Origin: the human T2T-CHM13v2.0 reference genome, Homo sapiens
Assembly: GCA_009914755.4 (NCBI GenBank)
Contig: CP068257.2
Location: 37,152,001 to 37,216,000, forward strand
Length of the DNA stretch: 64,000 bases
Reading direction: 5' to 3'
Under the pieces are notes generated by a model that made no database searches, had not been told where the DNA came from, and was given only the letters and a program-made list of their open reading frames with translations. This document shows, one piece after another, positions 59,818 through 64,000 of this stretch (its first letter is position 1; the number at the start of each line of letters is the position of its first letter). The position numbers and the translations under genes are program-made.

Positions 59818-60056
59818 TTGCCACAGTTTTTCTGAAACTTAGAAGAAAAGAGGAAAGGGAAGGGAAATAAGTATTTAGAGAAATCATTTTTCGGAACATC
59901 TTCAAAACTGGGATTGTGCAGAGATGAAGTCATGGGGCCTGCCTGCCCGCCTTTTCCATGGCGGGGAAGAAGCAGAATTACATTTCCGTCAGTTCTGCCC
60001 CACATCCTGGCTCTCCCCCATGTCCTGGCTCTCCCCAACATCACTCAACCAGCTTT

Positions 60057-61386
60057 ATTTATTTATTTGTTTATTTATTTATTTATTTATTATACTTTAA
60101 GTTTTAGGGTACATGTGCACATTGTGCAGGTTAGTTACATACGTATACATGTGCCATGCTGGTGTGCTGCACCCACTAACTCGTCATCTAGCATTAGGTA
60201 TATCTCCCAATGCTATTCCTCCCCCCTCCCCCCACCCCACAACAGTCCCCGGAGTGTGATGTTCCCCTTCCTGTGTCCATGTGTTCTCATTGTTCAATTC
60301 CCACCTGTGAGTGAGAATATGCGGTGTTTGGTTTTTTGTTCTTGTGATAGTTTACTGAGAATGATGATTTCCAATTTCATCCATGTCCCTACAAAGGACA
60401 TGAACTCATCATTTTTTATGGCTGCATAGTATTCCATGGTGTATATGTGCCACATTTTCTTAATCCAGTCTATCATTGTTGGACATTTGGGTTGGTTCCA
60501 AGTCTTTGCTATTGTGAATAATGCCGCAATAAACATACATGTGCATGTGTCTTTATAGCAGCATGATTTAGAGTCCTTTGGGTATATACCCAGTAATGGG
60601 ATGGCTGGGTCAAATGGTATTTCTAGTTCTAGATCCCTGAGGAATCGCCACACTGACTTCCACAATGGTTGAACTAGTTTACAGTCCCACCAACAGTGTA
60701 AAAGTGTTCCTATTTCTCCACATCCTCTCCAGCACCTGTTGTTTCCTGACTTTTTAATGATGGCCATTCTAACTGGTGTGAGATGGTATCTCATTGTGGT
60801 TTTGATTTGCATTTCTCTGATGGCCAGTGATGGTGAGCATTTTTTCATGTGTTTTTTGGCTGCATAAATGTCTTCTTTTGAGAAGTGTCTGTTCATGTCC
60901 TTCGCCCACTTTTTGATGGGGTTGTTTGTTTTTTTCTTGTAAATTTGTTTGAGTTCATTGTAGATTCTGGATATTAGCCCTTTGTCAGATGAGTAGGTTG
61001 CGAAAATTTTCTCCCATTCTGTAGGTTGCCTGTTCACTCTGATGGTAGTTTCTTTTGCTGTGCAGAAGCTCTTTAGTTTAATTAGATCCCATTTGTCAAT
61101 TTTGTCTTCTGTTGCCATTGCTTTTGGTGTTTTAGACATGAAGTCCTTGCCCATGCCTATGTCCTGAATGGTAATGCCTAGGTTTTCTTCTAGGGTTTTT
61201 ATGGTTTTAGGTCTAACGTTTAAGTCTAATCCATCTTGAATTGATTTTTGTATAAGGTGTAAGGAAGGGATCCAGTTTCAGCTTTCTACATATGGCTAGC
61301 CAGTTTTCCCAGCACTATTTATTAAATAGGGAATCCTTTCCCCATTGCTTGTTTTTCTCAGGTTTGTCAAAGATCAGGTAGCCGTA
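60057..61386 (-). mobile_element. L1 (young L1PA-like) 3' segment: ORF2 C-terminal region, 3'UTR and (TAAA)n tail
   Basis: (tttatttatttgtttatttatttatttattat) is the tail on the + strand. It is followed by actttaagttttagggtacatgtgcacattgtgcagg, the reverse complement of the L1 3' end ...GTGCACATGTACCCTAAAACTTAAAGTATAAT. The minus-strand ORF 60294-61154 ([105 protein letters not shown]...[21 protein letters not shown]) is the ORF2p C-terminus. Homology continues to [55 protein letters not shown] near 61384. Confidence 0.93.
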
Positions 61387-62538
61387 AAAAAGAGAATTTT
61401 AGACCAATATCCTTGATGAACATTGATGCAAAAATCCTCAGTAAAATACTGGCAAACCAAATCCAGCAGCACATCAAAAACCTTATCCACCATGATCAAG
61501 TGGGCTTCATCCCTGGGATGCAAGGCTGGTTCAATATACGCAAATCAATAAATGTAATCCAGCATATAAACAGAGCCAAAGACAAAAACCACATGATTAT
61601 CTCAATAGATGCAGAAAAGGCCTTTGACAAAATTCAACAACCCTTCATGCTAAAAACTCTCAATAAATTAGGTATCGATGGAACATATTTCAAAATAATA
61701 AGAGCTATCTATGACAAACCCACAGCTAATATCATACTGAATGGGCAAAAACTGGAAGCATTCCCTTTGAAAACTGGCACAAGACAGGGATGCCCTCTCT
61801 CACCACTCCTATTCAACATAGTGTTGGAAGTTCTGGCCAGGGCAATTAGGCAGGAGAAGGAAATAAAGGGTATTCAATTAGGAAAAGAGGAAGTCAAATT
61901 GTCCCTGTTTGCAGATGACATGACTGTATATCCAGAAAACCCCATTGTCTCAGCCCAAAATCTCCTTAAGCTGAGAAGCAACTTCAGCAAAGTCTCAGGA
62001 TACAAAATCAATGTGCAAAAATCACAAGCATTCCTATACACCAACAACAGACAAACAGAGAGCCAAATCATGAGTGAACTCCCATTCACAATTGCTTCAA
62101 AGAGAATAAAATACCTAGGAATCCAACTTATAAGGGATGTGAAGGACCTCTTCAAGGAGAACTACAAACCGCTGCTCAAGGAAATAAAAGAGGATACAAA
62201 CAAATGGAAGAACATTCCATGCTCATGGGTAGGAAGAATCAATATCGTGAAAATGGCCATACTGCCCAAGGTAATTTACAGATTCAATGCCATCCCCATC
62301 AAGCTACCAATGCCTTTCTTCACAGAATTGGAAAAAACTACTTTAAAGTTCATATGGAACCAAAAAAGAGCCCGCATCACCAAGTCAATCCTAAGCCAAA
62401 AGAACAAAGCTGGAGGCATCACACTACCTGACTTCAAACTACACTACAAGGCTACAGTAACCAAAACAGCATGATACTGGTACCAAAACAGAGATATAGA
62501 TCAATGGAACAGAACAGAGCCCTCAGAAATAACACCCT
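61387..62538 (+). mobile_element. Inverted 5' segment of the same L1 insertion: ORF2 reverse-transcriptase domain on + strand
   Basis: It starts ...aaaaaagagaattttagaccaatatccttgatgaacattgatgcaaaaatcctc ([18 protein letters not shown]). ORF 61413-62474 is [170 protein letters not shown]...KATVTKTA. This is the L1 ORF2p RT domain including the FADD motif. Similarity continues through [18 protein letters not shown] to ~62530. Confidence 0.93.
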
Positions 62539-64000
62539 ACCAGCTTTCTTTCCTGATAGGGCTCCAGAACTCCACATGGTGGACACTTGTCACTGGGAAT
62601 GATTCAGGCTTTAATGGGGCTGCTGGGCGGGAGCACAGGGCTTGAGGGCCAGAGGAAGTGGAGCAGGAACTGTGGCAAGAGGTAGAGGGAGCAAGCTGCC
62701 CCATCACCTCTCCTGAAATATCAAGCAAGTTAACAGGAGGATTTGTTGTGATTTGGAGATGGACCTTGGATTATCACTGTCACTGGGTCTGTCAGGCACT
62801 ATTTGTGACCTTGGGTATGCAATTTAATCACTCTCTGCCTCAGTTTCCCCTCCATAAAGCCAGGTCATTTGTGGCTGTTGGGGGGATTGATCTATTGGGG
62901 GTATAAGATTGTGTAAAGTCAGTAACCTGGGATGGGGGTGCTATTTGAACAGAGCACGCCAAGGAAGGTGTGTTTGAGCCAGGGGATCTGCAAAGAAAAT
63001 ATGGATCCCAGACAATCATGTCTCCATTTTCATCAGAAGAAATCCAGGGGCAGAGTTCAGTGATGAAACAAGTACTTAACTGAACCAAGACTCAAACCCT
63101 GGTCTTCTGTTTTCTGGTGTTGTCCTCTGGCCAAAATAACCCTGTCATGTTTGGTTGAAGTCATTATAAATGCTGCCCCAGATGCTACCTAGGGCTCCTT
63201 CAAGTTTCTAGTTCCTCCTTCCACAAACCAGAGGCCACAGCCCTTGATTTGAATTTTAAATTATCAGGAACCTCCTACCCAAAGAACACACAGCCCTCAT
63301 TTACAGCAGCTGCTGGCAGCTAGCTGAGTTCGAACAGATGCAAGAATCTCATAATCTGGGCCAGATATTAATCTGTCTTTTCTGTAACAGCAAAACAGAA
63401 GGGTGAGTCTTGAAGCAGTGCAGGGGGAAACCCCTTATTGTGCAACTCTTTTGTAACTCCTGGGCGGAGTCTGGACATGTGACTTCTGCTTGAAATTTAA
63501 CATTAGGGGAAAGACCATTTTTGGTCATAGCTGAGGTGATGACATCTTGGCAACTGGAATGGACATGACCTCTGTTCCATGTACTATGAGTAACTGCCCC
63601 CTCCCCATTTCTCAAAGTCATGTTCAGATGGCAAAACTGCCTGGGATTACCACATCTGACTCTTGCTAGCTGTTTCTGTGTCTATGGCTTCATACTGTCC
63701 AGACATAGACCTGGGGCTCAGCACACATGTATGTTTGAGTGGCATAAGGTCAGAAGCACAGATCCAGCAAAGACTGTGGCCCGGAGGAAGGTGGGTTGGT
63801 TGGAGGAAAGAAAGTGGAGGTGGGAGCAAACGAAGATAAGTAAACAAAAAAATGAGCTCTTAAGCAAAAAAGATTGCCTGTCTGCTGTAGCCTGTAAAGC
63901 TCTGATGAGAAACACTTTTATGATTTGCTGGTAAACTCCACCCAATTTGGTTCTGGAAGAGGTTATTTTTCATTGCAGTGTAAGCATGTAATTAGTTAAT

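What the first reader, a model, noticed from the sequence alone, without database searches (positions are those of the whole stretch)
60048..62547. Textbook twin-primed L1 insertion: inverted 5' ORF2-RT segment joined to a 3' ORF2-C-terminal/3'UTR segment, with a 9-bp TSD ACCAGCTTT
The 3' segment (minus strand, 60057-61386) runs from ORF2 ...[11 protein letters not shown] to the L1 3' end and a (TAAA)n-type tail. Directly abutting its 5' end, on the opposite strand, is the RT region (61387-~62535, [18 protein letters not shown] ... RTEPSEI). The inverted piece ends about 10 codons before where the non-inverted piece begins (…SEI versus LIFDKP…). This is the signature of twin priming (second-strand internal priming) with a small junctional deletion. 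The insertion is bracketed by accagcttt at 60048-60056 and 62539-62547. In element orientation the TSD begins AAAG, following a TT|AAAG L1-endonuclease cleavage site. The ORF2 fragments are nearly intact, with only a W to stop change at 62474, which argues for a young (L1PA2-4-like) element.
Basis: partly seen in the sequence, partly recalled or inferred. Interest (0 to 1): 0.55.

Follow-up and report, generated by a model that had tools for sequence, protein, structure and literature searches.

The report
Ordinary twin-primed (5'-inverted) L1PA2-like insertion
This is a dead 2.5-kb copy of the primate LINE-1 retrotransposon whose front half went in backwards during insertion, a well-known outcome called twin priming that affects about one in five L1 insertions, so it is real but ordinary.

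Summary
The core observation holds. Window 61386-62536 (+) encodes L1 ORF2p residues 526-909. Window 60092-61381 (-) encodes residues 914-1275 plus the 3'UTR, followed by a 35-nt (TAAA)n-type tail at 60057-60091. Against human L1 references the two pieces are contiguous except for 12 missing nt. Their L1 5' ends meet at the junction. The 3'-most base of the inverted piece lies 2 nt from the element's 5' target-site duplication. The exact 9-mer ACCAGCTTT (60048-60056 and 62539-62547) occurs only at these two places in the window. Both pieces carry about 1.0-1.4% private substitutions. The 3'UTR is of the young L1HS/L1PA2 type but has GAG, not the Ta-specific ACA. Twin priming of one L1PA2-like RNA is therefore well supported.

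- The junctional loss is 4 codons (12 nt), not about 10.
- Coding damage is more than one stop: TGA 62472-62474, TAG 61315-61317 and a 2-nt frameshift deletion at 61226/61227.
- The nick site is non-canonical. It reads 5'-CTTT/CT on the primed strand, or AG|AAAG in element orientation, not TT|AAAG.

Short non-L1 fillers sit at the inversion junction (CCGT) and next to the right duplication (CT). No orthologous empty site could be retrieved. This is a known kind of event and of low interest.

The parts
60048..60056 (.). Target-site duplication, copy next to the L1 3' tail (ACCAGCTTT on the + strand; AAAGCTGGT in element orientation).
   Evidence: Exact 9-mer, found only twice in the window, the other copy at 62539-62547. 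Its 3' end on the + strand is the inferred priming 3'-OH for first-strand cDNA.
60057..60091 (-). A-rich 3' tail of the element, AATAAATAAATAAATAAACAAATAAATAAAT in element orientation: a degenerate poly(A) or (TAAA)n tail.
   Evidence: TRF reports period 4, 9.5 copies, 94% matches over 60054-60091. The sequence was read. It follows the L1 3' end ...CTTAAAGTATAAT.
60092..61381 (-). Non-inverted (poly(A)-primed) L1 piece. It covers ORF2 nt 2739 to the stop (aa 914-1275, stop codon 60294-60296) plus about 200 nt of 3'UTR (60092-60293). It is disabled by TAG at 61315-61317 and a 2-nt deletion between 61227 and 61226.
   Evidence: Translations. ORF2p match to residues 914-1275, E about 1e-243. 96-98.4% nucleotide identity to human L1 contigs, for example L009 4819-3488. 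Stop and deletion located. 3'UTR states shown.
61382..61385 (.). 4-nt filler at the inversion junction (CCGT on the + strand; ACGG in element orientation). It is not alignable to L1.
   Evidence: All 14 references inspected read ...CTACAA|CTATCTG on one side and ...ACAAC(C/A)|AAAAAAGAG on the other. The window has ACGG between the two pieces. BLAST alignments stop at 61381 and start at 61386.
61386..62536 (+). Inverted (internally primed) L1 piece. It covers ORF2 nt 1576-2726 (aa 526-909, the reverse-transcriptase fingers/palm/thumb region). It has one stop, TGA at 62472-62474 (W888*), and no indels.
   Evidence: Translation. ORF2p match to residues 526-909, E about 1e-245. 97-98.3% ungapped nucleotide identity to human L1 contigs, for example L006 3156-4306. 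Stop located.
62537..62538 (.). 2 nt (CT) between the last L1-alignable base and the right duplication. They may be filler, or part of a longer imperfect duplication (CACCCTACCAGCTTT versus CACTCAACCAGCTTT, 13/15).
   Evidence: References continue GCATATC after ...AATAACGCC, whereas the window continues CTACCAGC. The extended similarity appears as family D4.
62539..62547 (.). Target-site duplication, copy at the element's 5' side (ACCAGCTTT on the + strand).
   Evidence: It is followed by unique flank CTTTCCTGATAGG.

Best explanation
A single L1PA2-like LINE-1 RNA inserted by target-primed reverse transcription with twin priming. The element is oriented on the window's minus strand.

Inferred steps:
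1. L1 endonuclease nicked the window + strand after ...ACCAGCTTT, at a T-rich but non-canonical site, 5'-CTTT/CT.
2. That 3'-OH primed cDNA synthesis from the poly(A) tail. Synthesis proceeded through the 3'UTR and back to ORF2 nt 2739.
3. The opposite strand was cut 9 bp away before this first cDNA was finished.
4. Its 3' end (...AAAGCTGGT-3') primed a second cDNA inside the same RNA at about ORF2 nt 2726. This cDNA ran back to nt 1576.
5. The two cDNA ends were joined with 4 non-templated nt. The 12 nt of RNA lying between the two priming and stopping points were lost.

Shown directly:
- The structure: duplication, inverted 1151 bp, ACGG, direct 1290 bp, A-rich tail, duplication. The insert is 2482 bp.
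- The L1 coordinates of both pieces.
- The matching age of the two pieces.
- Later decay to a non-coding fossil with two stops and one frameshift.

The order of the enzymatic steps is inferred from the established twin-priming model. The element has no present function. Its two long ORFs (353 and 286 aa) are remnants.
For: - Protein coordinates: residues 526-909 on the + strand and 914-1275 on the - strand of human ORF2p.
- Nucleotide coordinates in independent human L1 references leave a 12-nt gap in each case: L006 3156-4306 / 4319-5512, L010 3147-4297 / 4310-5614, L009 2328-3475 / 3488-4819. The missing bases are GCATATCTACAA.
- There is only one tail. There is no A-rich run beside the inverted piece.
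- The exact 9-bp direct repeat sits at both outer boundaries and is unique in the window. The positional chance is about 4e-5.
- L1 homology is confined to 60054-62536.
- Private substitutions are 16/1151 and 13/1290, which are not different. In both pieces the window shows the state opposite to about half of the references at sites where the references split.
- No long inverted repeat exists that could have mediated a later inversion.
- Literature: 18-22% of L1 insertions carry 5' inversions. In 46% of those, the end of one cDNA and the start of the other lie within 20 bp. Only 63-70% of insertions show a canonical endonuclease motif. Median duplication length is 13 bp, quartiles 10-15 (PMC12016303). 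The model and its hallmarks are described in PMC2837659.
Against: - The first-strand nick site is not the canonical TTTT/A. It is CTTT/C.
- No convincing microhomology exists between the top-strand overhang (ACCAGC...) and the L1 RNA 3' of nt 2726 (GCAUAU...). Two unassigned nt lie there.
- The inversion junction has a 4-nt filler rather than microhomology.
- No orthologous empty site or second copy of the locus was retrieved, so the insertion as a single event is inferred from structure alone.
- The 9-bp duplication is at the short end of the usual range.
Confidence: 0.92

Rival explanations
1. An ordinary 5'-truncated L1 insertion, uninverted and covering ORF2 nt 1576 to the 3' end, later suffered a DNA-level inversion of its 5' 1.15 kb, with loss of 12 bp and gain of small fillers.
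For: This gives the same final geometry as twin priming. The fillers CCGT and CT at the two breakpoints resemble end-joining scars.
Against: One inversion breakpoint would have to fall within 2 nt of the L1/duplication boundary by coincidence. No inverted repeats flank the segment to promote inversion. 5' inversions with ends within 20 bp are a frequent direct product of retrotransposition, including de novo somatic events (PMC12016303).
Confidence: 0.03
2. Two independent events. A 5'-truncated L1 inserted on the minus strand, and a separate L1 fragment on the plus strand landed next to it or was there first. Deletions then trimmed the second element.
For: Nested and adjacent L1s are common in primate genomes (general knowledge). 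Nothing specific in the data favours this.
Against: - The plus-strand piece has no 3' end, no 3'UTR and no tail, which independent target-primed insertions always retain.
- The L1 coordinates abut to within 12 nt out of about 6 kb.
- A single duplication pair brackets the composite, and there is no internal duplication.
- Private divergence is equal, and the two pieces do not differ detectably in subfamily state.
Confidence: 0.01
3. Two RNA molecules were used: a 'dual priming' event or a template switch. The inverted cDNA was copied from a second L1 RNA of the same subfamily rather than from the RNA that gave the direct piece.
For: Dual priming has been proposed as formally possible (PMC2837659). 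Sequence cannot distinguish two RNAs from the same source element.
Against: The near-exact continuity of coordinates (12-nt gap) is expected if the second primer annealed just upstream of the advancing first cDNA on one RNA. It has no reason to occur with two RNAs. As proposed, dual priming starts from the poly(A) of the second RNA, and no second tail is present.
Confidence: 0.03

Closest known systems
Twin-primed L1 insertions (5' inversion; Ostertag & Kazazian 2001, Genome Res 11:2059, cited from PMC12016303 ref. 14; that paper is not held in the library)
   Same: Two fragments of one L1 lie in opposite orientation inside one pair of target-site duplications. The non-inverted 3' piece carries the tail. 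The inverted piece comes from immediately upstream L1 sequence, with a small loss (12 nt) at the break. Piece lengths of 1151 and 1290 bp are above the medians reported for germline events (751 and 571 bp).
   Different: Nothing essential. Minor points are a non-canonical nick site, a short 9-bp duplication, small fillers instead of microhomology at both cDNA ends, and a (TAAA)n rather than pure poly(A) tail.
Standard 5'-truncated L1PA2 insertion by target-primed reverse transcription
   Same: Same element family, same 3' end, tail and duplication. It is likewise a decayed, non-coding fossil.
   Different: Here the 5' 1.15 kb is inverted relative to the 3' 1.29 kb.
Twin-priming variants with 5' poly(T), and 'dual priming' (Meyer et al. 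2010, PMC2837659)
   Same: Both involve priming from both nicked strands during one insertion.
   Different: Those loci have an inverted tail and essentially no non-inverted L1 body. Here the non-inverted body is 1.29 kb and there is a single tail at the normal end.

Membership tests
Twin-primed (5'-inverted) L1 insertion | Two adjacent fragments of the same L1 in opposite orientation. | tested here: met
   Window + strand 61386-62536 is ORF2p residues 526-909. Window - strand 60092-61381 is residues 914-1275 plus the 3'UTR.
Twin-primed (5'-inverted) L1 insertion | The L1 coordinates of the inverted piece lie immediately upstream of those of the non-inverted piece, with only a small gap or overlap. 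| tested here: met
   A 12-nt gap (GCATATCTACAA, ORF2 nt 2727-2738) is seen in every reference checked.
Twin-primed (5'-inverted) L1 insertion | Geometry: the 3'-most L1 base of the inverted piece abuts the element's 5' duplication, and the L1 5' ends of both pieces meet at the internal junction. | tested here: met
   ORF2 nt 2726 is at 62536, 2 nt from the duplication at 62539. ORF2 nt 1576 (61386) faces ORF2 nt 2739 (61381) across 4 nt.
Twin-primed (5'-inverted) L1 insertion | A single poly(A) tail on the non-inverted piece, and one pair of target-site duplications around the composite. | tested here: met
   The A-rich tail is at 60057-60091. ACCAGCTTT is at 60048-60056 and 62539-62547 and is unique in the window.
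Twin-primed (5'-inverted) L1 insertion | Both pieces derive from one RNA, so they share subfamily and age. | tested here: met
   Private substitutions are 1.4% versus 1.0%, Fisher p = 0.46. Both pieces show the non-L1HS state at sites where the references split. The references are contaminant assemblies and partly mosaic, so resolution is limited.
Twin-primed (5'-inverted) L1 insertion | Complementarity or microhomology between the top-strand target overhang and the internal L1 RNA priming site. | tested here: inconclusive
   With a 9-bp duplication there is 0-1 nt of homology and 2 unassigned nt (CT). Alternatively there is a 13/15 imperfect duplication overlapping the last L1 bases. The literature notes that microhomology is sometimes absent.
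Twin-primed (5'-inverted) L1 insertion | Canonical L1 endonuclease motif at the first-strand nick (TTTT/A, TTTT/G or TTTC/A). This is a hallmark of target-primed insertion and is not strictly defining. | tested here: not met
   The nick is 5'-CTTT/CT on the primed strand, AG|AAAG in element orientation. About 37% of germline L1 insertions also lack the canonical motif.
Twin-primed (5'-inverted) L1 insertion | A precise empty pre-integration site in a genome lacking the insertion. | not testable with these tools
   No primate genome collection was available. Scans of metagenome contigs for both flanks gave 0 hits. Exact-product look-ups of three ORFs gave nothing.
Human/ape L1PA lineage, young subfamily (L1PA2-like) | Near-identity to human L1 ORF2 and 3'UTR. 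| tested here: met
   97-98.4% nucleotide identity to human L1 contigs. About 96% amino-acid identity to L1HS ORF2p. At the 3'UTR sites where the references differ, the window shares the L1HS-type bases: TTGGGAG, CTAGATGAC, TTAGTGGG, CCAGCATGG, AACTAACC, CACAATGTG. No curated subfamily consensus was available, so 'L1PA2' rests on these states plus about 1.2% private divergence.
L1HS-Ta (currently active human subfamily) | ACA trinucleotide in the 3'UTR (GATGAC-ACA-TTAGTGG). The diagnostic is recalled from the literature (Skowronski 1988, Boissinot 2000). | tested here: not met
   The window has GAG at this position within 60167-60191. The Ta-type reference L005 has ACA.

The most novel reading that the evidence does not exclude
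The least ordinary reading not excluded is that the insertion records an atypical resolution of target-primed reverse transcription. It combines a pyrimidine-only nick site (CTTT/CT) with non-templated fillers at both cDNA ends (CT at the internal priming site, ACGG at the inversion junction) and no microhomology. This would fit extension from an unpaired or mismatched top-strand primer followed by end-joining-type repair, rather than annealing-guided twin priming. It could also be a lineage-specific or polymorphic L1PA2 copy useful as a phylogenetic marker.
Probability: 0.1. Interest if true: 0.15.

Novelty: already known. Interest (0 to 1): 0.07.

Why it matters
It matters little beyond annotation. 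The locus is a clean worked example of a twin-primed L1, a class that makes up roughly a fifth of L1 insertions, and any repeat annotation of a hominid genome will already list it as two adjacent L1PA fragments in opposite orientation. Its only practical value is as a presence/absence marker among apes, dated at about the L1PA2 era by roughly 1.2% private divergence. It is also one more data point showing that twin priming can occur at a non-canonical nick site without detectable microhomology.

Tried and rejected
- A search of IMG/VR for L1 ORF2 to obtain references found only one locus at 70% identity, which was useless. References were taken instead from human-contaminated contigs in GTDB genomes.
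Both gave 0 hits.
- Exact-product look-ups of the three locus-specific ORFs (286, 352 and 353 aa), meant to find the same locus in other assemblies, found nothing on record.
- An Rfam scan of the whole window found nothing.
- Ostertag & Kazazian 2001 (PMC311219) and Khan et al. 2006 (PMC1356131) are not held. The model's features were taken from PMC2837659 and PMC12016303.
- Published subfamily-selective primers (PMC12432230) lie in the 5'UTR, ORF1 and early ORF2, outside this fragment.
- Subfamily assignment from informative ORF2 sites across 20 references gave a mosaic pattern because the reference contigs are themselves mixed or chimeric. Only the 3'UTR states and the private divergence were used.
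- I considered extending the direct piece through ACGG (TAC-GG-CTAC versus TAC-AA-CTAT) and extending the duplication to 13 or 15 bp with mismatches. Neither can be decided from this sequence.
- I checked whether the L1 RNA motif GAUCUUU could have paired with the overhang. I rejected this because priming there would have produced an overlap between the two pieces, not the observed gap.
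Full report
**What is in the sequence**

I read 59800-62800 on both strands. On the + strand, 61386-62537 translates as [18 protein letters not shown]...[13 protein letters not shown] with a single stop. 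On the - strand two frames are needed. The first gives [26 protein letters not shown]...INSRWI (from 61380). After a frameshift, the second gives [10 protein letters not shown]...[10 protein letters not shown].

Searched against all PDB chains, the + piece aligns end to end with human LINE-1 ORF2p residues 526-909 (8uw3_A numbering, E about 1e-245). The stitched - piece aligns with residues 914-1275, the C-terminus (E about 1e-243). Only HIYN (residues 910-913) is missing between them.

Downstream of the stop codon (60294-60296) the - strand continues through an L1 3'UTR. It ends in ...CTTAAAGTATAAT and is followed by AATAAATAAATAAATAAACAAATAAATAAAT. TRF reports this tail as a period-4 array at 60054-60091.

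**Nucleotide coordinates**

No repeat library was available. I therefore fetched L1 references by searching GTDB genome contigs with ORF2p 526-1275. This returned 80 loci that are evidently mammalian L1 contamination, most of them human L1 at 92-99% amino-acid identity and several nearly full length.

BLASTN of 59900-62700 against these loci gives two collinear blocks per reference:

| Reference | Inverted piece | Direct piece |
|---|---|---|
| L006 | 3156-4306 (window 61386-62536, +) | 4319-5512 (window 61381-60190, -) |
| L010 | 3147-4297 | 4310-5614 |
| L009 | 2328-3475 | 3488-4819 |

In each of these references 12 nt are skipped. Side-by-side printing shows the missing bases are GCATATCTACAA, which are ORF2 nt 2727-2738. 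The same printing shows that CCGT (61382-61385) at the inversion junction and CT (62537-62538) next to the right duplication match no reference.

With the L1 start placed by the 5'UTR motif in the full-length contig L003 (ORF2 ATG at about L1 nt 1987), the pieces correspond to roughly L1 nt 3562-4712 (inverted) and nt 4725 to the 3' end (direct). L1 homology in the whole 64 kb is confined to 60054-62536. The other hits are about 300-nt Alu-sized segments.

**Flanking repeat**

ACCAGCTTT occurs exactly twice in the window, at 60048-60056 and 62539-62547. A 9-mer turning up twice somewhere in 64 kb is unremarkable (34 of 100 shuffles). At the two outer boundaries of the L1 material, however, the chance is about 4e-5.

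The similarity can be stretched to 13/15 (CACTCAACCAGCTTT versus CACCCTACCAGCTTT, family D4). This overlaps bases that also align to L1, so I keep 9 bp as the firm duplication. The insert between the copies is 2482 bp.

**Geometry and mechanism**

The element lies on the minus strand. In element orientation the order is:

1. 5' flank ...CAGGAAAG
2. duplication AAAGCTGGT
3. AG
4. antisense ORF2 nt 2726 down to 1576
5. ACGG
6. sense ORF2 nt 2739 to the 3' end
7. A-rich tail
8. duplication AAAGCTGGT
9. 3' flank TGAGTG...

[quoted passage not shown] The poly(A)-primed cDNA stopped at nt 2739. The top-strand 3' end primed a second cDNA at nt 2726, which ran to nt 1576, and the two cDNA ends were ligated.

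Such 5' inversions occur in 18-22% of germline and somatic L1 insertions. In 46% of them the two cDNAs lie within 20 bp of each other (PMC12016303).

No long inverted repeat exists in the region. This is expected, because the two pieces do not overlap in L1 coordinates. It also leaves no substrate for a later recombinational inversion.

**One event, one RNA**

I aligned both pieces with 20 references. The inverted piece has 16 private differences in 1151 nt. The direct piece has about 13 in 1290 nt, including the 2-nt deletion. These rates do not differ (Fisher p = 0.46). At sites where the references split roughly in half, both pieces carry the state opposite to the L1HS-like references.

**Subfamily**

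ORF2 informative sites are muddied because the contaminant contigs are mosaics. The 3'UTR is clearer. The window shares every derived state of the L1HS-type reference L005:

- TTGGGAG
- CTAGATGAC
- TTAGTGGG
- CCAGCATGG
- AACTAACC
- CACAATGTG
- CCCTAAAAC

Older-type references read TTAGGAG, CTAAATGAC, TTAATGGG, CCAACATGG, AACAAACC and CACGTTGTG.

The window has GAG where the Ta subfamily has ACA (the diagnostic itself is recalled from the literature). Identity to the best references is 98.2-98.4%, and private divergence is about 1.2%. Together these point to an L1PA2-like element. The age in years is not computed here. From memory, L1PA2 is dated at about 7-8 million years (Khan et al. 2006, not held).

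1. The junctional loss is 12 nt, or 4 codons, not about 10 codons. T908, P909 and Y914 are present.
2. The ORF2 remnants are not disrupted only by W to stop at 62474. There is also TAG at 61315-61317 (W935*). In addition, a 2-nt deletion in TGGATTA--GAC (61227/61226) shifts the frame.
3. The cleavage site is not TT|AAAG. The two bases before the duplication in element orientation are AG. On the primed strand the nick is 5'-CAGCTTT/CTTTCC. Moving the nick within the terminal TTT, or extending the duplication to ACCAGCTTT(C/A)TTT, does not produce a canonical TTTT/A site either. This does not argue against target-primed insertion, because 30-37% of L1 insertions lack the canonical motif.
4. The boundaries shift by a few bases, and two short fillers exist.

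**Open points**

Microhomology at the internal priming site is not demonstrable. The overhang complement is ACCAGC..., while the L1 RNA 3' of nt 2726 reads GCAUAU.... The junction carries a filler rather than microhomology.

I could not obtain an empty site. There were no hits for either flank in metagenome contigs. The three locus-specific ORF products were not on record.

**Rivals**

- A post-insertional inversion needs a breakpoint that coincides with the L1/duplication boundary to within 2 nt.
- Two independent insertions are contradicted by the tailless, 3'-truncated plus-strand piece, the 12-nt continuity, the single duplication pair and the equal age.
- A two-RNA event gives no reason for the continuity.

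**Verdict**

This is a real, correctly interpreted but entirely ordinary feature: a fossil twin-primed L1PA2-like insertion. It is already known as a kind, is certainly covered by standard repeat annotation, and is of low interest.

Noticed in passing
Loci L002-L081 (GTDB genome contigs), for example L002 = CZJV02000019.1, L003 = LZSC01000001.1: At least 117 stretches in species-representative bacterial or archaeal assemblies encode L1 ORF2. Most of the 80 loci kept are 92-99% identical in amino acids to human ORF2p. One is a full-length 6-kb L1 in a 'Mycobacterium sp.' contig, and several are low-coverage contigs. These are human DNA contamination. Others, at 57-77% identity (L024, L030, L034, L043 and more, several from mouse-gut isolates), look like L1 from other mammals.
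   Followed up: partly
L001 (IMGVR_UViG_3300006201_000159, 11.8 kb), match at 1319-2464: A contig in the IMG/VR viral collection carries an L1-type ORF2 at 70% amino-acid identity to human ORF2p. It is probably mammalian host DNA misfiled as viral.
   Followed up: no
window 59994-60042: An 18-bp tandem repeat, TCTCCCCCACATCCTGGC x 2.7 at 80% matches, ends 5 nt before the left target-site duplication. It is part of the unique flank, not of the L1.
   Followed up: no
window 4187-59812 (17 segments, nearest 59528-59812): Seventeen segments of about 140-310 nt match DNA in locus L074 at 72-83% identity. Sixteen of them match one roughly 300-nt stretch (L074 4060-4380). From their size and copy number I take them to be Alu elements in both orientations. 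The L1 studied here is the only young L1 in the 64 kb. GC content is 40-54% in 4-kb bins, peaking at 36-40 kb, which suggests an Alu-rich, moderately GC-rich region.
   Followed up: no
window 61413-62474 (+) and 60294-61154 (-): ORFs of 353 aa and 286 aa survive inside the dead element. They are ORF2 remnants covering the reverse-transcriptase core and the C-terminal segment. A naive gene caller would report them as genes.
   Followed up: yes
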